Part shown: positions 23,601 to 41,600 of the stretch, one piece after another
Layout: each line of letters starts with the position of its first letter
Numbering within the stretch: position 1 is the first letter of the stretch
NCBI GenBank assembly: GCA_963804995.1
Contig: CAWDSK010000002.1
Location: forward strand, 480,001-544,000
Length of the DNA stretch: 64,000 bases
Source of the DNA: an uncultured Acidobacteriota bacterium
GTDB taxonomy: Bacteria > Acidobacteriota > Terriglobia > UBA7540
Direction: 5' to 3'
Position numbers: made by a program

Positions 23601-26600
23601 GGGTGAGGGGTCATTCAAGAACAAATTGAAGAAGATGTGCAGTTGCCGGGCAGGTTCGAATGTTGACCCGAAATCGCCCGCTGCGCGGGCTGTGATGCTG
23701 AGCGAGTGTCGCAGGGGGCATCAGATGCTCGCGGCTTTTCGATAACGCGCCATGTGTTCCTGAAGGTCAGGATTATCAGGGTCGAGGGCGAGTGCTTTTC
23801 TCTGAGTATCGACTGCCTTCTGAAAATCCTCGTTGACGAAGTAAGCTTCCGCCAGAGTATCGATGAATTCCGACTCTTTCCATTGCGTCAACTCCACCGC
23901 GAGCTGGGCGTGGGCCAGAGCAGCTTCGGGGTCGCGATACTTCAGGTCTTCGCAAGTGGCGTACAGCCACGCGAGGTTGTTGTGAGCTGCCGCCATGGCG
24001 GGTTCCAGACGCAAGGCTTCGGCGTAGTGGGCGATTGCCTCGGGGTAGAGTTTCTGTTCCGCGTAAAGATCGGCCAGCAACCTTTGGCCCTCAGCAGTCT
24101 GAGGACTCTTCCCCAATACCTTCTCAAAAATCTGCTGCGCTTTCGGGAGGTCGCCTTTCAAGCGGTAGACCATACCCAGTCTCAGTTGAGCCTCGGGATC
24201 GTCCGGGTCGAGGCGAATCGCTTCTTCGCACTCGCGCAGGGCCTGGTCATACTGCTTCTGGGCGAGGTAAAGCGCGCTCAGTTGCTCGTGAGGGCGCTCG
24301 TCGTGGGGAGCCCGGCGCGCAGCTTCCTGGAAACTTTGAAGGGCTCGATCATACTTCCGGGCCGTCGCGAACCGCGAGCCCTCCGCCAGCAATCGGTTGA
24401 CGGCCTGGGTCGTTCGATAGTGTTCCCCCGTCCCCGCCATGGCGAGCAACACCACCACGACCGGCAGCACTACCATTCCCTGTGAGGGGGACTCCACAAT
24501 TTCCCCCGGGACACGGACGTGTTCAGGAGGCGGAATCACCAGTGCCAACAAGATGCCACTCGCGAGGCCACCCAAGTGTCCCCAATTATCGATGCCGTGC
24601 GCCCAATACCCGGAGGCCAAAACGAGGACAATGAAGGGAATGATTCCCTTGCCGAACGACCTGCCCCAGCGGGGAGGAACGGCGTCGCGGTGAAGGTAAC
24701 CGGTAACCAGTATCGCGCCGGCGATGCCGCAGATGGCTCCTGAGGCTCCGGCGGAGATGTTGGTTGATACCGTCATCGACAGCAGCGCGCTGCCCATCCC
24801 CGCGGCGACGTAAATCGCGGCGTAACGCCCGTAACCGTACACACGTTCGAGCAGCGGTCCCAGGAAAAAAAGCGCGTAGCTATTCCCCAACAAATGACCC
24901 CAACCGATGTGCAGGAATATCGGCATGACCAGGCGCCAGTACTCGCCGCGCCGGAAATAGGGACCGTAAGCAGCGCCGAAGTCGAGCAGGACTCCGGTTT
25001 TTTCTGATCCCCCGGCGTACGTCTCCAAAAGGAAAATCAGCAGATTGAGGGCGAGGATGACGAAAGTGGCGATTGGCCAGGAGCGCCGGGGAGGAGAATC
25101 CTGTTGCGGTACCGGATAATTTAAAGGTTGGTCGGCCATCAGTCTCAGTCAAATGTCAGGGGTTGGAAGCGGGCGAGCCGCTTACGCCTTGGGGAGCTCC
25201 TCATAATAGCTTTCGCCGGCGCACGAACGGCACAAAACTTGTCCCGCGACGTGGCGCTCGCGGCCATCGTTGATTCCCTCCCCGCAACGGGTGCAGTTCA
25301 CACGGGATCGTGGCCTGCCCGGAAGGTCGCCAGGATCGAGTTTCACGCGCACCCACTGAACGGTAAACAATTCGCCGTCACCCATCACCTTGTAGGCTTC
25401 GAGTTGCGCCTGATGGGGGTCGGAAAGAGCGGGAAACATTAACTTGGCGCGCTGGCGCGAATCGTCGCGGGCCACGATGCGAACCGCGTGACCCGTTTCC
25501 GTATCGACGAAGGTGGCCGCCACCTTGCCGTAATCGTGGAACTTGAGGGTGCGCTTCCCCAACCGGCAACCCGTTACCAGGCTGATGGTGTCGGTCGCGC
25601 AACGATCGATTTCAACAAACGTTAACAGGCGCTTGCAGTGCTTTACCGGATCGTCAAACCCCAGCGCCTGCAGGCCGTAGATGGCCATGCGAATTCCCAG
25701 CATCTGGCCGGGACACATGTGGCCATGATTCTGCCCCGCCAGCGTGATGTACTCTTCCAACGTTTTCATGGGCGCAGCCCGCAGTGGGAAATTATACCAT
25801 CCCGCTGCGGGCCGCGGCGTGCGTCGGCGGCGCTTGGGTTGACTTCCTTGACAGTTGCTTTGGGGTGGGAAGAGAATCGTTGTAGCTTGTCGGCGCGCAA
25901 TTGTATGGCTGGAGGGGCGCGGTGGAAAGAGGGAGAATCGCTGCCTCACGCACCAGGAGAGGAAACCATGTTGGGTAAGAAAACAGTTCGAGCGTTAGTG
26001 CTGGCACTGCTGGTTGCGATGGCGAAGGCCACGGCGGTCACCCCCCCGCGCCCTGCCAATCCGCACGACTTTGCCGTGATGGCGTGGGACAACGCGCCGT
26101 CCGACCCGGAACAGTTGCGGCTGATGAAGGAGGCCGGGCTCAACATCGCGGGATTCTGTGCGCCCCACGATGTGGAACGCGTGCACGCTGCGGGTCTCAC
26201 TTGTTTCGTTTCGGACGGACGGGTAAGCGGCTACGATTGGGAAAAGCTGCCGCCGGATATAGAACTCAAGAAAAATATTGCGGCTGCGGTTCACGACGTG
26301 GCAGGCAATCCCGCTGTCCTCGGCTACCTGCTGCGAGATGAACCGCGCGTAAATCTGTTCCCAGGGCTGGGGCACATAGAGAGACTGCTGGCTGAGGCAA
26401 TGCCCGGCGGCTGGCCTTACGTAAACCTCTTTGCAGCCTTCGGTGGCCGCGCTTTCACGGGCGCCGACGACTACGAAACGTACCTGCGGGAATATGTCGA
26501 GAAGGTTCATCCCCCCTTCCTTAGTTATGACGACTACGCGCTGGTGGAAGGTGAGATGCGCGATATCTTTTACACCAATCTCGAATTGGCGCGCCGGGTG

Positions 26601-38600: not shown

Positions 38601-41600
38601 ATGCCCTTGCGCATGGCCTCGATCAACCAAAGGATGAGGACGGAGTCCAGGTCATAGACGGGTTTCGACCTGCCCGCGAAGCCCTCTTTTTGTGCGTCGC
38701 CCGTCAGGGCCAGAATGTTTTCGACACCCAGGCGGGCTAGACTGTGCAGGCGGCCTTCGAGGGACGACCGGTTCCCATCCTTGCCCGTCAGGTGGGCAAT
38801 CGGAGTCAGCCCCAGGTCTTTGATTCCTGCCACGAATGCTTCGGGGGGCAGCGCAGGGTTGCCGCCCGGCAGGTCTGTCACGCTGATGACCTTGATGCCA
38901 TTGGCCTCGGCGGCGGCTTCCTTGACGAAAGTCTCCGCCTCCACGACGTTGTGGTCCCGCCCCAGCACGAGCTCCGCCGTGCAGAAGAATTGCTTCTTCT
39001 TGAGCGCCAGCTTCAAATGGTTTCCCGTTCCCGCTTCTTCGCCTGCAGTCATTCGTATTTCCTTTGGCCCGTCACGCTCGCCTTGCATTTCTCCGGCGCG
39101 AAGGCGGGGGTTCTGTCTGTGATGTAGCGGTCCCGATGCTCCCTAGCGGGTGCCGCGTGCCGAGCTTATCCCCCTGTCATCGGCTCTCGTTCTCCGTGTA
39201 AGGAGAGCGCCGCCTTATGGCTCTTGATCAGACGGCGGCCGATCAACGCCGCCAGGTGTTTGTAGAAAACCAGCCCGCTCGCACAATCTGCACGCAGAAT
39301 TTGATCCAGGTGGTGGTTTTCGATCTTCAGGACCTTGACGGGAACCAGGCATTCCGCGGACGCCGTGTACGTCTCGTTGTCCACCAGACTCGACCAGCCG
39401 AGGGCGTCGCCCGGGTCGCTGGATACGTAGGCCAGGAGTTCTTTGTGCCCCACACTCAGCCGCACGCGTCCCTCACTCAGTATGTAGAAATCCGTGGCGG
39501 GCTCGCCCTCACGAAAAATGAACGCGCCCGCCGCGTACGATTCTTCAGTTGCGGCATCCAGAATCTTCCCGCGAGTTTCCTCGCTCATTCCCTGAAAAAG
39601 GTAAGCTGTTTCCAGGTACATTGTTCGCTCCTATCCTAAAACAATCCTGAAACCTTCCCGGTCTTCACATCCACATCCACCCGGCGGAATCCCGGGTTGG
39701 ACGACGTGCCGGGCATCAAGCTGATGGTGCCCGCGCAGGGGCAAAGGAATTTGGCGCCCGAGTAAACCAGCACGTCGCGAATCGGCAGCACCCAGCCTTC
39801 GGGAACTCCCTTGAGCGCCGGATCGTGGCTCAGGCTCAGGTGGGTCTTCACCATCATGGTGGCATAGTCGGCGTACTTGGGGTCGGACTTCGAGCGCTTT
39901 GGATTTGGCTTCCGCTTCGGGCGTCCAGACAACTCCATCGGCGCCGTAAACTTCCTTGGCAATGTGCTCAACCCGATCGCGCAACTTCATCTCAAGCGGG
40001 TAGAGGTACTGAAATTTGACTTCGTCCCGGCAGGCGTCCAGTACCGCGTCCGCGAGCTCCAGCGCCCCCTCGCCGCCTTTGGCCCAGTGCTCGGAAGAGG
40101 CACAGCGTGCGCCCGTGGCTTCCACGGCCCGCCGCACCAGGGTGATTTCTTCTTTCGTATCGGTATTAAAACAGTTAATACAGACCACCGGATTGATTCC
40201 CGACCGGCGAATGATGCCCAGATGGTGCAGCAGGTTGGGAAGTCCCTTTTCGACGAGCCGCAGATTCTCGCGAGTGTATTCCTCTGCCAGCGGTAATCCG
40301 GGTGCGACGCGTGGACCGCCGCCGTGCATCTTGAGGGCGCGGATAGTGGTGGTCAGCACGGAGACGTTGGGCTTAAGCCCGCTGCACCGGCACTTGACGT
40401 TCCAGAACTTTTCGAAGCCGATGTCCGCTGCAAAGCCGCTCTCCGTGACGTGAAAGTCAAACATCTTCAGGCCCAGGCGGTCGCCGATAATCGACGACTG
40501 CCCCACGGCGATGTTGGCGAAGGGCCCGGCGTGCACCATGCAAGGCTGGTATTCAGCCGTGCTGCACAAGGTGGGGTTGATTGTGTTGCGCATCCAGGCG
40601 GCCATGGCGCCCGCAACTTCGAGATCCTGCGTGGTGACGGCATTCCCCTGCTTGTCGTAGGCGACGGTGATCTCCCCCAGGCGCTTCCGCAAGTCGGCCA
40701 GGTCCGTGACAATGGCGAGAATCGCCATCAGCTCAGAGCTGACCGTGATGGCGAACTTCGATTGCACCATGAAACCGTCTTGCTTGCCGCCGATACCGAT
40801 GATGATGTTGCGCAGCGCCTGCGCGCAGAAATCGATGACCCAACCCATTTCGAGGCGCGTGGGGTCGATATCCAGGCGGCGCGTCACGCCGTGCTGCTGC
40901 AACTGCTGGTCGCTGTAATTCCGTTCGTGCTGTAAGCGCGCGGTGAGCGCCACCATGGCCAGATTGTGGGCATTGGCAATGTCGTTGATGTCGCCCGTAA
41001 GCCCCAGGGAGAACTCCGTCATGGGGATCAGCAGGGCGTTTCCACCCCCCGCCGCCGTGCCTTTCACGTTCATCGTCGGGCCGCCGGAGGGCTGGCGCAG
41101 GCAGCCGCCCACGTTTTTGCCCCGTTTCCCCAGACCTTCGATCAAACCCAGGGAAGTTGTGCTTTTTCCCTCACCTAGAGGAGTGGGTGTAATGGCTGTA
41201 ACTTCAACGTATTTCCCGTCCGGGCGGTCTTTTAGTCTTTCGATGATCTTAAGGAAATCCAGCTTCGCCAGCCGCCCCATGGGGATGACTTCATCTTGTT
41301 GCAGGCCCAATCTTTCCTGCCATTCGTGAGGGCTGGGCATCTGGCGTTCTGCCGCCTCGGAAATTTCCCAGTCCTGCATCTTCGTCGCGTCGTACGCCAT
41401 TCGAAAGACCCCCGATTTCCCGGTACGATTAAGTCTTCAAAGCACTTGCGGTGCCATTCCAAGGGGAGTGTGGAGAAATTCAACGCCCCTCAGGGTTATG
41501 TGACCTGGTCCTCTGGGGGGGGCCTGAGGTGGCAAAACAGGGAGTCGCGCGCCCCCACAATCGAAAACTCGTGCCTCCGCGCCCCCGAATCTCTATTCAA

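What a model noticed while it worked through the whole genome (the two positions that open the first line are those of the whole stretch)
25182..41400. Corrinoid methyl-transfer operons plus six non-Pyl MttB genes: a demethylating, formate/H2-yielding C1 route in a bog ac [...]
A 16-kb gene row joins three MtaA/MtbA-type (URO-D) methyltransferases, a corrinoid protein, its RACo/RamQ-type reductive activase, DUF1638, a methylcorrinoid:tetrahydrofolate methyltransferase, MTHFR and formate-THF ligase; a second such operon lies at C4:44607-49438, and six stand-alone MttB-family genes without an in-frame TAG and 17 URO-D genes are scattered over the genome. I read this as an anaerobic demethylation pathway: methyl groups of quaternary amines or methoxylated compounds pass via cobalamin to THF, are oxidised to formate and vented as H2 + CO2 by the formate hydrogenlyase at C5:754850-769455. 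New: abundant peat Acidobacteriota would compete with methylotrophic methanogens f [...]
Evidence so far: Call 21: g01121-g01139 on the minus strand (except g01122 and the 79-aa call g01136 on a heptamer hairpin; an S23p cassette g01129 and a Y1 transposase fragment g01132 are inserted): URO-D g01123, g01125, g01130; B12-binding g01127 (corrinoid protein DSY3155); g01128 RACo (RamQ); g01131 DUF1638; g01135 Pterin_bind (NCBIfam methyltetrahydrofolate:corrinoid methyltransferase); g01137 MTHFR; g01139 FTHFS. Call 95: C4 operon g02956, g02957 RACo, g02959 corrinoid protein, g02960 URO-D; MttB genes g00260/61, g02421 (483 aa), g02539 (463 aa), g02666/67, g04526/27, g06250 (481 aa), best hits glycine betaine / trimethylamine methyltransferases of Desulfitobacterium. 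Call 58: Hyf/Hyc-type hydrogenase [...]
(Added by a program. Inside this text positions count along the whole contig: contig position 480,001 is position 1 of the stretch shown here. "Call 12" and the like, gene names such as g00115 and contig names such as C1 are that model's own, and its searches are not shown. The text may have been shortened before it was handed on; [...] marks where a part breaks off. The agent that wrote the report below was given it as the finding of a first reader that could run no searches.)

Follow-up and report, generated by a model that had tools for sequence, protein, structure and literature searches.

The report
B12 methyl-transfer hub in peat Acidobacteria
This gene row encodes a vitamin-B12 carrier protein with its repair enzyme and several loading and unloading enzymes, which can probably pass methyl groups from plant-derived compounds to methionine or into folate metabolism; it is a soil-bacterial variant of a system recently described in marine bacteria, not a new kind of pathway.

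Summary
The gene row is real, and it is conserved in the organism's uncultured Terriglobia family.

- **A stand-alone homocysteine S-methyltransferase** lies at 35437-36316.
- **Four genes each carry one frameshift:** both 421-aa URO-D genes, the homocysteine methyltransferase and FTHFS. These are probably assembly errors.
- **The genome also has a full MetH and three haem-copper oxidases.**

With the homocysteine enzyme, the row holds all five parts of the "split methionine synthase / MtgBCDE hub" of Phaeobacter and Ruegeria:
- corrinoid protein
- pterin methyltransferase
- homocysteine methyltransferase
- RamA-like activase
- DUF1638

A MetF-type reductase sits beside the pterin enzyme, as in Ruegeria. 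Three URO-D-superfamily methyltransferases are added in cis, and six non-Pyl MttB genes lie in trans.

My reading is an oxygen-tolerant, modular methyl hub that serves both methionine synthesis and folate-linked C1 oxidation. It is not a strictly anaerobic route that vents formate and H2. That outlet is possible, because a Hyf-type hydrogenase with an FDH-like subunit exists, but nothing links it to the row.

The ecological claim, that peat Acidobacteriota demethylate and compete with methanogens, is already in print (mSystems 2023).

What remains open is the 421-aa URO-D subfamily. It is widespread, unstudied and MtaA-like in fold, and its genes often lie beside sugar genes. This scan had already flagged it on other DNA.

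Verdict: new variant of a known kind, of moderate interest.

The parts
39636..41400 (-). Formate-tetrahydrofolate ligase (FTHFS); one frame change near 39885, true stop at 39636-39638
   Evidence: PF01268 601.7 bits. NF010032 911.1 bits, matched only to position 512 of 587. The canonical C-terminus sits in another frame. Orthologues are 87-89% identical.
39166..39621 (-). Small cNMP-binding-domain protein (151 aa, no DNA-binding domain found); possible regulator
   Evidence: PF00027 63.2 bits. It lies between FTHFS and MTHFR in 3 of 4 relatives examined. A 29%-identical paralogue lies beside the C5 hydrogenase.
37484..39088 (-). MTHFR fused to a Cys-rich MetV-like C-terminal domain (MetF-MetV fusion)
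   Evidence: PF02219 and PF12225. The Cys-rich tail is visible. It lies within 2.6 kb of the pterin methyltransferase, on the same contig, in 44 of 48 family genomes that have both.
37254..37503 (.). Inverted heptamer arrays (GGCAGAA/AGTAGGC facing CTGCCTA x12) that form a long hairpin; the site of the spurious 79-aa call
   Evidence: TRF. Sequence. RNA fold -122.9 kcal/mol, z -6.1, 0 of 200 shuffles as good. Some public contigs lack this stretch (joints 37290>37445 and 37290>37473).
36379..37224 (-). Methyl-corrinoid:THF methyltransferase (pterin-binding; MtgD/MtgA/MT II-like)
   Evidence: NF005719 304.7 bits, above the cut-off of 259. The best solved relative is 4o0q (187 bits), followed by the MeTr chains 2yci and 2e7f.
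35437..36316 (-). Stand-alone homocysteine S-methyltransferase (MtgE-like); one frame change near 36095
   Evidence: PF02574 covers profile positions 2-63 and 80-282 in two ORFs. The NCGQG and GGCCGT cysteines are intact. Public contigs, one of them 98% identical, lack one base at 36095. The orthologue in L031 has no net frame shift.
34804..35235 (-). IS200/RAYT-like Y1 transposase fragment (an insertion)
   Evidence: Y1_Tnp 16.4 bits, below the cut-off. Paralogues exist on C6 and C3. Public contigs skip 34733>35279.
34687..34731 (-). Sub-threshold Acido-Lenti-1 RNA motif
   Evidence: RF01687 31.6 bits against a gathering score of 37, E 7e-4. There is a depth spike and loose ends here in run X3.
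33804..34556 (-). DUF1638 protein (250 aa); its stop overlaps the start of the next gene by 4 nt
   Evidence: PF07796 126.4 bits. Thirteen orthologues of 246-259 aa begin MRLKL. It is required with RamA for the split MetH in Phaeobacter (PMC5764234).
32782..33807 (-). URO-D3: MtaA/CmuA-like zinc methyltransferase (341 aa)
   Evidence: PF01208 202.9 bits. TIGR01463 172.6 bits, below the cut-off of 235.4. Best PDB match is MtaA 4ay7, 87.5 bits. It has an H234-x-C236...C314 motif.
32357..32746 (-). S23p four-helix-bundle cassette (an insertion)
   Evidence: PF05635 120.8 bits. Eight further tblastn matches to it lie at seven other places in the genome. It sits at other positions in relatives. Public contigs skip 32212>32804.
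30715..32241 (-). RACo/RamA-type ATP-dependent corrinoid reductive activase with an N-terminal 2Fe-2S domain
   Evidence: PF14574 229.1, PF17651 164.2 and PF00111 40.8 bits.
30058..30696 (-). Corrinoid protein (B12 cap plus B12-binding domain; DxHxxG motif)
   Evidence: PF02607 and PF02310. MtgC-type models score 226.7 and 186.6 bits, below their cut-offs. D100, H102 and G105 are invariant in 22 orthologues. It is one of only three cap domains in the genome.
28617..29908 (-). URO-D2: about 421-aa member of the UROD1 subfamily, 68% identical to URO-D1; frameshift near 29489
   Evidence: Two-frame tblastn matches to intact orthologues. A run of six G sits where seven restore PRGGFYF. Public contigs have an extra base behind 29489.
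27207..28477 (-). URO-D1: about 421-aa member of an uncharacterised URO-D subfamily; frameshift near 28185
   Evidence: Two-frame matches. A run of three T sits where four restore WTTFAGT. Orthologues are 60-87% identical across many phyla. The fold is closest to MtaA.
25968..27206 (+). Secreted protein of unknown family, convergent on URO-D1; not part of the operon
   Evidence: Signal-peptide-like start. No Pfam hit. Its Atlas neighbours are Acidobacteriota hypotheticals, and one cluster carries GH42 in 13% of members.
25182..25769 (-). FmdE-domain protein with a C4 zinc finger; the conserved last gene of the operon in relatives
   Evidence: PF02663 104.3 bits. It follows URO-D1 in 8 Terriglobia loci at 59-75% identity.

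Best explanation
The row encodes a modular cobalamin methyl-transfer hub. I infer it is oxygen-tolerant.

**The carrier and its upkeep.** A small corrinoid protein cycles between Co(I) and CH3-Co(III). A RamA/RACo-type ATP-dependent activase returns it to Co(I) after oxidation, probably with the help of DUF1638.

**Loading (inferred).** The carrier is loaded by URO-D-superfamily methyltransferases encoded in cis. These are two paralogous 421-aa enzymes of an unstudied subfamily and one MtaA-like zinc enzyme. The six non-Pyl MttB enzymes encoded elsewhere probably load it too.

**Unloading.**
- A stand-alone homocysteine S-methyltransferase takes the methyl group to make methionine.
- A reversible pterin-binding methyltransferase passes it to tetrahydrofolate. 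The adjacent MetF-MetV reductase, FolD (encoded elsewhere) and FTHFS can then oxidise it to formate with ATP gain, or the same enzymes can run the other way to supply methyl-THF.

**What is shown and what is not.**
- Shown here: gene content, conservation, linkage and phyletic co-occurrence.
- Inferred: the donors, the direction of flux and the physiological role.

The system is the Acidobacterial counterpart of the MtgBCDE/split-MetH hub of marine Rhodobacterales, with URO-D-type donors added.
For: **All five genetically defined parts of the Phaeobacter split MetH are in one row** (Pfam; definition in PMC5764234):
- PF02574 methyltransferase
- PF00809 pterin protein
- PF02607 + PF02310 corrinoid protein
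- ferredoxin + DUF4445/RACo activase
- DUF1638

**Parallels with Ruegeria** (PMC12478193):
- The same corrinoid and pterin proteins serve both methionine synthesis and betaine demethylation.
- metF2 lies beside mtgD.
- Up to seven MttB genes lie in trans.

**The same pattern here:**
- MTHFR lies within 2.6 kb of the pterin methyltransferase in 44 of 48 family genomes that have both.
- The pterin methyltransferase lies within 6 kb of DUF1638 in 25 of 44 genomes with both, including 19 of 21 in the own genus.

**Conserved gene order.** Terriglobia MAGs keep the order SMT-DUF1638-UROD3-RACo-CoP-UROD1-FmdE.

**Distribution of the DUF1638 orthologue:**
- 65 of 132 family genomes
- 21 of 28 genomes of the own genus
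- 6 of 300 in a phylum sample

**MttB co-occurs with the hub:**
- 43 of 47 MttB-positive genomes carry it, against 22 of 85 MttB-negative genomes.
- All 11 MttB-positive genera are hub-positive.
- A DUF1638 paralogue lies beside an MttB gene in 4 relatives.

**Carriers are few.** The genome has only three B12 cap domains: MetH and two stand-alone carriers.

**This set looks like an extra one.** MetH and a YitJ-type MTHFR are encoded elsewhere.

**Other genome context.** There is no ACS, and there are three COX1 genes.

**The URO-D enzymes look like corrinoid methyltransferases:**
- The UROD1-family model (pLDDT 91.4) is closest to the corrinoid methyltransferase MtaA: 4ay8 at E 4.5e-13, TM 0.55/0.66.
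- UROD3 has the H-x-C...C spacing of MtaA (the identity of the ligands is recalled, not taken from a call).

**A weak hint that DUF1638 binds the carrier.**
- CoP + DUF1638 scored ipSAE 0.54 in complex prediction, against 0.00 for the best of 3 controls, and the verdict was 'weak support'.
- The runs agree in at least 80% of contacts, and the partner's pLDDT is at least 78.
- In calibration the mark was reached by 116 of 157 solved complexes and 2 of 215 mismatched pairs.
- At scores of 0.60 or below it was reached by only 18 of the 157 solved complexes and by both mismatches.
Against: **No function was measured:**
- There are no expression data.
- There is no direct link between the MttB or URO-D enzymes and this carrier.

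**Four of the row's genes carry a frameshift in this assembly.** If the frameshifts are real, the hub is decaying.

**The UROD1 family may not depend on a corrinoid protein:**
- 54 of the 80 related loci have no corrinoid protein gene within 10 kb.
- Its third zinc ligand is not the MtaA cysteine.
- All 32 such genomes that I tested do hold a short cap-domain ORF elsewhere, but I have no background rate for comparison.

**The folate link is not universal:**
- SMT is present in only 9 of the 17 loci with DUF1638.
- The pterin/MTHFR module is unlinked to the hub in 0 of 14 genomes of genus g190. It is absent from genus g215, where 6 of 15 genomes have DUF1638.

**Orthology is untested.** The corrinoid protein scores below the cut-offs of both MtgC models, and I did not test its orthology to the roseobacter MtgC.

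**Cofactor supply.** No CbiC was found (genome 92% complete), so the cofactor must be imported.
Confidence: 0.6

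Rival explanations
1. The row is a dedicated anaerobic catabolic demethylation route. 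Methyl groups of quaternary amines or methoxylated compounds go by way of cobalamin to THF and are oxidised to formate. The Hyf-type formate hydrogenlyase then releases them as H2 + CO2.
For: - **The folate branch is in place.** The pterin methyltransferase, MTHFR and FTHFS are linked in the window, and FolD is present.
- **No ACS was found**.
- **A hydrogenase is available.** There is a bona fide group-4 NiFe hydrogenase with the RICGICGFIH and DPCFSCTER motifs, next to an FDH-like molybdopterin subunit.
- **The MTHFR is of an anaerobe-type kind.** MetVF-type MTHFRs are known from acetogens (PMC8760232 and PMC8515935, search listing and abstracts only).
- **A possible shared regulator.** cNMP-binding paralogues lie beside both FTHFS and the hydrogenase.
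- **There are precedents.** Demethylase-metF-ligH operons oxidise methyl-THF in Sphingobium (PMC11868366).
Against: - It ignores the operon-encoded homocysteine methyltransferase.
- The genome has three haem-copper oxidases.
- The hydrogenase lies on another contig, and no co-occurrence was tested.
- The FDH-like subunit scores 339 bits against a cut-off of 666.
- Oxidising methyl-THF (E0' about -200 mV, recalled) with protons as the acceptor is thermodynamically hard without a syntrophic partner. This point is inference.
- In genus g215, 6 of 15 genomes have the hub but none has the pterin/MTHFR module.
Confidence: 0.15
2. The row is only a second, split methionine synthase (CH3-THF to homocysteine) with its own folate supply. 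On this reading the URO-D genes are neighbours that do something unrelated to the carrier.
For: - The five split-MetH parts and an MTHFR form the conserved block.
- UROD1 orthologues in 54 of 80 loci have no carrier gene nearby.
Against: - UROD3 is translationally coupled to DUF1638 by a 4-nt overlap, and it keeps that place in 16 Terriglobia loci.
- UROD1 follows the carrier gene directly in the same loci.
- Genus g190 keeps DUF1638-UROD3-RACo-CoP-UROD1 without SMT or a pterin methyltransferase beside it.
- A full MetH already exists.
- In relative L035, MtaB heads the same operon.
Confidence: 0.1
3. The row is a thiol-methylating system. Methyl groups taken from methoxyl or methyl-ether donors by the UROD1-type enzymes are passed by the MtaA-like zinc enzyme UROD3 to sulfide or small thiols. 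That would yield methanethiol and dimethyl sulfide, as seen in Sphagnum peat and in Holophaga foetida.
For: - UROD3 and the C4 URO-D carry the MtaA H-x-C...C motif typical of thiol-activating zinc methyltransferases.
- The C4 enzyme passes the MtaA/CmuA cut-off, at 247 bits against 235.4.
- The minimal conserved core in genus g190 has two URO-D types, a carrier and an activase, and no other acceptor enzyme.
- Peat bogs emit DMS through thiol methylation (PMC5607357, passages read).
- The acidobacterium Holophaga foetida and related isolates form methanethiol and DMS from methoxylated aromatics plus sulfide. I saw only the titles of Bak 1992 and Liesack 1994, in a reference list.
- Kountz and Balskus propose methyl-sulfur or methyl-selenium roles for bacterial MtaA-like proteins (PMC10418091).
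Against: - There is no direct evidence for a thiol acceptor.
- The window's operon encodes homocysteine and THF outlets.
- The Kiene and Hines paper is not held, so this rests on secondary citation.
Confidence: 0.1
4. The row is a decaying, non-functional remnant, and the four frameshifts are real.
For: - There are four frame changes in about 14 kb.
- Two mobile-element insertions lie within the row.
Against: - Two of the four frameshifts are one-base homopolymer length errors.
- Split genes are frequent elsewhere in this 9-contig assembly: 3 of 6 MttB loci and the C6 YitJ-type gene.
- Public short-read contigs carry one gap at each site. One of them is 98% identical and removes the extra base in SMT.
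- All orthologues examined are intact.
- No premature stops or deletions are seen apart from the frame changes.
Confidence: 0.05

Closest known systems
MtgBCDE + RamA-like activase + DUF1638 + MetF2 of Ruegeria pomeroyi, equal to the three-part split methionine synthase of Phaeobacter inhibens (PMC12478193; PMC5764234)
   Same: - It has the same five protein families: stand-alone corrinoid protein, pterin methyltransferase, homocysteine S-methyltransferase, ferredoxin-RACo activase and DUF1638.
- A second MetF lies beside the pterin methyltransferase.
- Several MttB genes lie in trans.
- The host respires oxygen.
- A classical MetH can coexist with the system; Price et al. note this for S. meliloti.
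   Different: - Here all the parts are in one operon, and three URO-D-superfamily methyltransferases and FmdE are built in.
- The MTHFR is a MetF-MetV fusion.
- FTHFS and a cNMP-binding protein are attached.
- The host is a peat Terriglobia.
- Orthology of the carrier to the roseobacter MtgC was not tested.
- No genetics or proteomics exist for this system.
Four-component corrinoid O-demethylases of acetogens and Desulfitobacterium (MT I, corrinoid protein, MT II, activating enzyme)
   Same: - It has a carrier, a RACo-type activating enzyme and a pterin-binding MT II. The best solved relative of the window's pterin methyltransferase is 4o0q. That this entry is the D. hafniense O-demethylase MT II is recalled, not taken from a call.
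- The MT I enzymes OdmB and VdmB belong to the UroD superfamily (PMC10418091).
   Different: - I had no OdmB, VdmB or MtvB sequence to compare, so the relation of UROD1-3 to them is untested.
- Those hosts are strict anaerobes with the Wood-Ljungdahl pathway, and here ACS was not found.
- Those systems have no homocysteine methyltransferase or DUF1638 in the operon.
MtaA/MtbA/MtsA methylcobamide:CoM methyltransferases, and the bacterial 'type 1 mlp gene clusters' (Kountz and Balskus, PMC10418091)
   Same: [quoted passage not shown]
- UROD3 has an MtaA-like fold and zinc motif.
- The UROD1 family's best structural match is MtaA.
   Different: - Type 1 clusters lack a THF methylase and were found only in obligate anaerobes, mostly Firmicutes.
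- Here a THF methylase, a homocysteine methyltransferase and oxidases are present.
- UROD1 and UROD2 are recent paralogues (68% identical), not distinct Mlp lineages.
- UROD1 and UROD2 score only 37-39 bits on TIGR01463.
ligM-metF-ligH operon of Sphingobium lignivorans SYK-6 (PMC11868366)
   Same: - A demethylase is coupled to an MTHFR that oxidises methyl-THF and to a further folate C1 enzyme.
- Demethylation of the carbon source feeds methionine synthesis.
   Different: - LigM is THF-dependent and cobalamin-independent.
- The S6MTHFR is a monomeric MetF without a MetV domain.

Membership tests
Split MetH / MtgBCDE hub | Stand-alone corrinoid protein with a B12 cap and a B12-binding domain, His-on motif | tested here: met
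   PF02607 60.0 bits and PF02310 108.2 bits. DxHxxG is invariant in 22 orthologues.
Split MetH / MtgBCDE hub | Stand-alone pterin-binding methyltransferase (MtgD) | tested here: met
   NF005719 304.7 bits, above the cut-off of 259. PDB relatives are MeTr, MT II and the MetH folate domain.
Split MetH / MtgBCDE hub | Stand-alone PF02574 homocysteine S-methyltransferase (MtgE) | tested here: met
   PF02574 lies over two ORFs. The zinc cysteines are intact. The gene carries one frameshift in this assembly, and that base is absent from a 98%-identical public contig.
Split MetH / MtgBCDE hub | RamA-like ferredoxin + DUF4445/RACo activase, and a DUF1638 protein | tested here: met
   PF00111 + PF17651 + PF14574, and PF07796.
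Split MetH / MtgBCDE hub | Second metF beside the pterin methyltransferase | tested here: met
   They are adjacent in the window and in 44 of 48 family genomes that have both.
Split MetH / MtgBCDE hub | The carrier is required both for methionine synthesis and for demethylation of an MttB substrate | not testable with these tools
   This needs genetics or biochemistry. Only phyletic co-occurrence is available: 43 of 47 against 22 of 85.
Split MetH / MtgBCDE hub | The carrier falls in the roseobacter MtgC/CmuA-related clade | not tested
   No reference sequences were at hand. The NCBIfam MtgC models score 226.7 and 186.6 bits, below their cut-offs of 370 and 310.
Corrinoid O-demethylase (MT I/CP/MT II/AE) | MT I related to OdmB/VdmB/MtvB | not tested
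   No reference sequence was available. URO-D-superfamily membership alone is met.
Corrinoid O-demethylase (MT I/CP/MT II/AE) | Carrier, pterin-type MT II and RACo-type activating enzyme in one cluster | tested here: met
   The same holds for the C4 operon.
MtaA/CmuA family (TIGR01463) | Score at or above the curated cut-off of 235.4 bits | tested here: not met
   UROD3 scores 172.6 bits, UROD1 37.1 and UROD2 38.6. The C4 URO-D does pass, at 247 bits.
MtaA/CmuA family (TIGR01463) | H-x-C ... C zinc motif | tested here: met
   UROD3 has H234, C236 and C314, and the C4 URO-D has H238, C240 and C316. The UROD1 family has H310 and C312 but no cysteine at the distal place. The identity of the ligands in MtaA is recalled.
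Pyrrolysine-type MttB (TIGR02369) | In-frame TAG and a score at or above 525 bits | tested here: not met
   The best score is 414.5 bits. The only TAG lies in an out-of-frame frameshift junction.
Wood-Ljungdahl acetogenesis | Acetyl-CoA synthase (CdhC, PF03598) | tested here: not met
   0 matches in the genome, which is 92% complete.
Formate hydrogenlyase (group 4 NiFe hydrogenase + FdhH) | NiFe-binding motifs in the large subunit, and a formate dehydrogenase subunit in the cluster | tested here: inconclusive
   The RICGICGFIH and DPCFSCTER motifs are present. The molybdopterin subunit is best matched by Fdh-alpha, but at 339.1 bits against a cut-off of 666.

The most novel reading that the evidence does not exclude
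The 421-aa UROD1-type enzymes form an unstudied branch of the URO-D superfamily. It has 1,606 cluster representatives at 50% identity with E<=1e-30, and members are 60-87% identical across at least ten phyla.

On this reading they are cobalamin-dependent O-demethylases of methyl-ether sugars or other plant-wall methoxyl compounds. In peat Terriglobia they would hand those methyl groups, through one small B12 carrier, directly to homocysteine and folate. Glycan breakdown would then feed methionine and C1 metabolism without oxygenases and without free methanol.
Probability: 0.2. Interest if true: 0.8.

Novelty: new variant of a known kind. Interest (0 to 1): 0.45.

Why it matters
**What it would change.** If the hub works as read, an abundant family of peat bacteria can harvest methyl groups from betaines, and probably from methoxyl or methyl-sugar compounds. 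In relatives with MtaB, methanol would be a further source. The groups would go into methionine or into folate-linked oxidation, under both oxic and anoxic conditions.
- This draws on the same substrates as methylotrophic methanogens.
- It makes these bacteria dependent on imported cobalamin, because no CbiC was found.

**What is already known.** Both the general idea and the core mechanism are published.

**What is still open.**
- The substrate of the very widespread 421-aa URO-D subfamily.
- The role of DUF1638.

The compact, conserved operon gives a direct set of proteins to express and assay for both questions.

Tried and rejected
**Expression and reads**
- Expression check: no RNA holder was listed for 27207-37200.
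- The three DNA runs found hold only 5-7% of the sampled words. They represent relatives or near-identical strains, not proof about the source sample.

**RNA families**
- No Rfam family reaches its gathering score in the 64-kb window. No cobalamin, SAM or THF riboswitch appears, even at E<=1, between 25000 and 42000.

**DUF1638 structure**
- The model is only moderately confident (pLDDT 67.7, pTM 0.65).
- Foldseek against the PDB gave nothing convincing (best E 8.2e-4, TM 0.22), so I draw no fold-based function from it.

**UROD1 family against solved structures**
- UROD1 gave 0 matches by phmmer.
- The family profile gave one weak URO-D C-terminal match (20.1 bits).

**Rejected readings**
- Pyrrolysine reading of the TAG in the C3 MttB: rejected, because the TAG is an out-of-frame junction.
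- Identity with the type 1 mlp clusters: rejected, because a THF methylase and oxidases are present here and UROD1/UROD2 are recent paralogues.
- Acetogenesis: rejected, because there is no CdhC.
- Methanol as a donor in this genome: no MtaB was found, though relative L035 has one at the head of the operon.

**Literature**
- The Kiene and Hines 1995 paper could not be opened.
- The search for 'methylated sugars' + corrinoid + demethylase listed no paper that holds the first term together with corrinoid among the 10 shown.
- The earlier-notes look-up for this genome returned nothing.

Full report
**What is there**

All but one lie on the minus strand. In order of transcription they are:

1. FTHFS.
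2. A 151-aa cNMP-binding protein.
3. An MTHFR fused to a Cys-rich MetV-like domain.
4. A pterin-binding methyl-corrinoid:THF methyltransferase (NF005719, 304.7 bits, cut-off 259).
5. DUF1638.
6. An MtaA-like URO-D (UROD3).
7. An S23p cassette.
8. A RACo/RamA-type activase with a 2Fe-2S domain.
9. A corrinoid protein.
10. Two further URO-D genes (UROD2, then UROD1).
11. After a convergent plus-strand gene for a secreted protein, FmdE.

The genome-wide statements also hold:

- A second operon on C4 holds a pterin methyltransferase, RACo, a corrinoid protein and a URO-D.
- There are six MttB loci, three of them split. All score below the Pyl-MttB cut-off. Their only TAG lies in an out-of-frame junction.
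- There are 18 URO-D matches, one of them hemE-like.
- A Hyf-type group-4 hydrogenase has intact NiFe motifs and sits beside an FDH-like subunit.

1. Between the pterin methyltransferase and DUF1638 lies a stand-alone homocysteine S-methyltransferase (PF02574) at 35437-36316. One frame change splits it into two ORFs. Its NCGQG and GGCCGT cysteines are intact.
2. UROD1 and UROD2 are not 330-aa genes. Intact orthologues are 419-430 aa and begin MTSRERV. In the window each gene matches them in two frames. The breaks fall at a run of three T where four are needed, and at a run of six G where seven are needed.
3. FTHFS changes frame near 39885. Its canonical C-terminus (…THLSLSHDP…GLF) sits in the other frame.
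4. A complete five-domain MetH lies beside the C4 operon. A YitJ-type homocysteine methyltransferase/MTHFR lies on C6. There are three COX1 genes.

**Are the frameshifts real?** Probably not, for four reasons:

- Two of the four are homopolymer length changes.
- Split genes are common elsewhere in this 9-contig assembly.
- All orthologues examined are intact.
- Public short-read contigs laid on the row carry exactly one gap across each site. There is an extra base behind 29489 in two runs. One base is missing at 36095 in two runs, one of them on a contig with 3 mismatches in 185 bases.

These contigs come from relatives or near-identical strains, not demonstrably from the source sample. The point is therefore likely but not proven.

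The same contigs skip three other stretches, which marks them as insertions:

- the S23p cassette
- the transposase fragment
- the heptamer-hairpin stretch

**What it is**

With the homocysteine enzyme, the row contains exactly the five components that fitness genetics defined as the split methionine synthase of Phaeobacter inhibens (PMC5764234, passages read):

- PF02574 methyltransferase
- PF00809 pterin protein
- PF02607/PF02310 corrinoid protein
- a ferredoxin-DUF4445 RamA-like activase
- DUF1638

Mausz et al. 2025 studied the same system in Ruegeria (PMC12478193; Results part 1 and Discussion read). They report three things:

- The carrier (MtgC) and the pterin methyltransferase (MtgD) are needed both for methionine synthesis and for glycine betaine demethylation by MttB-family MtgB.
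- A second metF lies beside mtgD and is the most strongly induced protein on methylated substrates.
- Up to seven MttB genes occur in trans.

The window reproduces that pattern in a peat bacterium.

**Conservation**

A scan of 185,579 species genomes with UROD1 gave 545 confirmed relatives, of which the best 80 loci were kept.

Neighbours of UROD1 in those 80 loci (tblastn E<=1e-10):

| Neighbour | Loci out of 80 |
|---|---|
| Corrinoid protein | 26 |
| RACo | 23 |
| DUF1638 | 17 |
| Homocysteine methyltransferase | 9 |

- Nearly all of these neighbours are in Terriglobia or Acidobacteriota MAGs, many from peat.
- In those MAGs the order SMT-DUF1638-UROD3-RACo-CoP-UROD1-FmdE-rhomboid/TPR is collinear with the window.

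Distribution of the DUF1638 orthologue:

- 65 of 132 other genomes in the organism's family
- 21 of 28 genomes in its genus
- 6 of 300 genomes in a phylum-wide sample

Linkage within the family:

- Orthologues of the pterin methyltransferase and the MetF-MetV MTHFR occur in 49 and 48 of 132 genomes.
- They share a contig within 2.6 kb in 44 of the 48 genomes that have both.
- The pterin methyltransferase lies within 6 kb of DUF1638 in 25 of 44 genomes that have both. That includes 19 of 21 in the own genus and 0 of 14 in genus g190.
- FTHFS directly precedes the MTHFR in 4 of 4 relatives in which FTHFS was found. The cNMP-binding gene lies between them in 3 of these.

So there are two modules, joined into one row in this genus:

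- a folate module: FTHFS-cNMP-MTHFR-pterin methyltransferase
- a carrier module: (SMT)-DUF1638-UROD3-RACo-CoP-UROD1-FmdE

**The MttB link**

The genome has only three B12 cap domains: MetH and two stand-alone carriers. None of the six MttB genes has a carrier gene beside it.

| Group | Carry the DUF1638 hub |
|---|---|
| MttB-positive family genomes | 43 of 47 |
| MttB-negative family genomes | 22 of 85 |
| MttB-positive genera | 11 of 11 |
| All genera of the order searched (33) | 17 of 33 |

- Three of the four MttB-positive genomes without the hub still have the folate module.
- In four relatives a DUF1638 paralogue lies directly beside a high-scoring MttB gene.
- Relatives are not independent, so this is supportive rather than statistical proof.

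**The URO-D enzymes**

- **UROD3 and the C4 URO-D** are MtaA-like.
  - UROD3's best solved relative is MtaA 4ay7.
  - Both have the H-x-C…C spacing.
  - The C4 enzyme passes the MtaA/CmuA cut-off.
- **UROD1 and UROD2** are 68% identical and belong to a distinct subfamily.
  - A profile of 46 members finds 1,606 cluster representatives at 50% identity with E<=1e-30.
  - There is no solved sequence relative beyond a weak URO-D C-terminal match.
  - The AlphaFold model is confident (pLDDT 91.4). Its best structural matches are the corrinoid methyltransferase MtaA (4ay8 at E 4.5e-13, 4ay7 at 2.9e-12), ahead of true uroporphyrinogen decarboxylases and MetE.
  - H310-x-C312 is invariant, but the distal cysteine of MtaA is not there.

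Outside Terriglobia, the UROD1 subfamily usually has no carrier gene within 10 kb (54 of 80 loci). Of 15 such loci that I scanned, 8 have one of the following within 4.5 kb. There is no chance control for this count.

- a sugar ABC, MFS or SSF transporter
- an FGGY kinase
- a GH2 gene
- a malectin-domain protein

In all 32 of 32 such genomes, a short cap-domain ORF exists somewhere. The necessary condition for corrinoid dependence is therefore not refuted, but I have no background rate.

Further context:

- In the own genome, the scattered URO-D paralogues lie beside fucosidase, rhamnosidase, melibiase-like, GH38 and GH42-like genes and beside sugar oxidoreductases.
- In relatives, the same operon is headed by MtaB (L035) or preceded by GH3 + GH28 (L042).
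- Earlier agents of this scan reached the same 'methyl-sugar demethylase' idea on other DNA. I treat that as a lead, not as support.

**How it most likely works**

Shown:
- gene content
- linkage
- conservation

Inferred from the characterised families:
- The carrier cycles between Co(I) and methyl-Co(III).
- The RACo protein uses ATP and a low-potential electron to rescue Co(II).
- DUF1638 assists this. Genetics in Phaeobacter supports it. A weak predicted contact with the carrier points the same way:
  - The score was ipSAE 0.54, against 0.00 for the best of 3 controls, and the verdict was 'weak support'.
  - The runs agree in at least 80% of contacts, and the partner's pLDDT is at least 78.
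  - In calibration the mark was reached by 116 of 157 solved complexes and 2 of 215 mismatched pairs.
  - At scores of 0.60 or below it was reached by only 18 of the 157 solved complexes and by both mismatches.
- URO-D and MttB enzymes load the carrier.
- The homocysteine methyltransferase and the pterin methyltransferase unload it.

Direction of the folate branch:
- Sequence does not fix it.
- MetH and a YitJ-type MTHFR are encoded elsewhere.
- No ACS was found.
- The Ruegeria MetF2 and the Sphingobium ligM-metF-ligH operon are precedents for oxidation.
- Together these make an oxidative role of the MetF-MetV/FTHFS module plausible.
- Three COX1 genes mean that respiration, and not only proton reduction, can take the electrons.

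**Novelty**

- The ecological idea is in print. Ellenbogen et al. 2023 report that Acidobacteriota are among the main methylotrophic bacterial phyla at Stordalen Mire. They express methanol and methoxyl demethylation genes in bog and fen, and compete with methanogens (PMC10805028, passages read; supplements not opened).
- The hub mechanism is in print for marine bacteria.
- Bacterial clusters of MtaA-like genes with a carrier and an activase are described as type 1 mlp clusters. Those clusters lack a THF methylase and occur in obligate anaerobes (PMC10418091; Results part 1 and term searches).
- I found no description of this architecture. It combines the split-MetH core, UROD1-type and MtaA-like URO-D enzymes, FmdE, a MetF-MetV MTHFR and FTHFS in Terriglobia.
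- I also found no description of the function of the UROD1 subfamily.
- This scan has met related split-MetH/URO-D operons before on other DNA.

I file the finding as a new variant of a known kind.

Noticed in passing
window 28507-28566, 32245-32374, 36330-36412, 37254-37503: Several intergenic gaps of the operon hold tandem heptamer arrays that face their own reverse complement, with a different heptamer at each site. As RNA they fold into strong hairpins, with z scores of -3.2 to -6.1 and 0-2 of 200 shuffles as good. Run X3 shows very high depth in two of those bins, 28155-28628 and 37161-37634, so such arrays are common in peat metagenomes. Their function is unknown; mRNA processing, mRNA stability or recombination sites are possibilities.
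   Followed up: partly
window 34687-34731 (-): A sub-threshold Acido-Lenti-1 RNA motif (31.6 bits against a gathering score of 37, E 7e-4) lies just downstream of the IS200/RAYT-like fragment. A depth spike and loose ends occur at the same place in public contigs.
   Followed up: no
window 39166-39621 (-); G000:C5:754399-754794: A small cNMP-binding-domain protein with no DNA-binding domain lies between FTHFS and MTHFR, and it is conserved there in 3 of 4 relatives. A 29%-identical paralogue lies at the end of the Hyf-type hydrogenase cluster. The two may share a signal that links formate metabolism at both loci.
   Followed up: partly
G000 loci L024, L025, L027, L028, L029, L030 (C2:180k, C2:212k, C5:1167k, C5:539k, C3:1439k, C3:810k): Scattered URO-D paralogues of about 350-435 aa lie directly beside alpha-L-fucosidase, GH78 rhamnosidase, melibiase-like, GH38 and GHL6/GH42M genes, aldo-keto reductases, GFO/IDH/MocA oxidoreductases and an MFS transporter.
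   Followed up: partly
window 25968-27206 (+): A secreted 412-aa protein with no Pfam hit is convergent on UROD1, and the two stop codons abut. Its Atlas neighbours are Acidobacteriota, Verrucomicrobiota and Bacteroidota hypotheticals, and one cluster carries GH42 in 13% of members. A 65%-identical copy sits at the same place in relative L033.
   Followed up: partly
G353:C6:233873-236005; G345:C252:3547-5660; G389:C142:4516-8134; G311:C346:1127-3675: In four family relatives, a second and more distant DUF1638 paralogue (39-49% identical) lies immediately beside a high-scoring MttB gene (327-370 bits). This resembles the marine mtgB-type arrangement.
   Followed up: no
L035:2251-3762; L042:142-4491: In one relative, a full MtaB (551 bits) heads the same SMT-DUF1638-UROD3-RACo-CoP-UROD1 operon. 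In another, GH3 and GH28 (pectin-type) genes precede it on the same strand.
   Followed up: no
G000 whole genome; L084:12941-15294: No CbiC was found in the 92%-complete genome, although it has at least three cobalamin-dependent methyl-transfer systems, so it probably imports corrinoids. In a Bacillota relative, the FmdE-zinc-finger gene next to the UROD1 orthologue is followed by FecCD and ABC_tran genes (B12/siderophore-type transport). That hints that FmdE relates to cofactor supply.
   Followed up: no
G000:C4:1117-2094; G000:C6:183852-184805: Two short MetE-like ORFs (Meth_synt_2 at 90 and 62.7 bits; 394 and 360 aa) resemble the 'core-MetE' type rather than full-length MetE.
   Followed up: no
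window 32357-32746 and seven other genome places: S23p (23S rRNA intervening-sequence protein) four-helix-bundle genes are multi-copy. They sit at different positions inside the same operon in different relatives, so they behave like mobile cassettes.
   Followed up: partly
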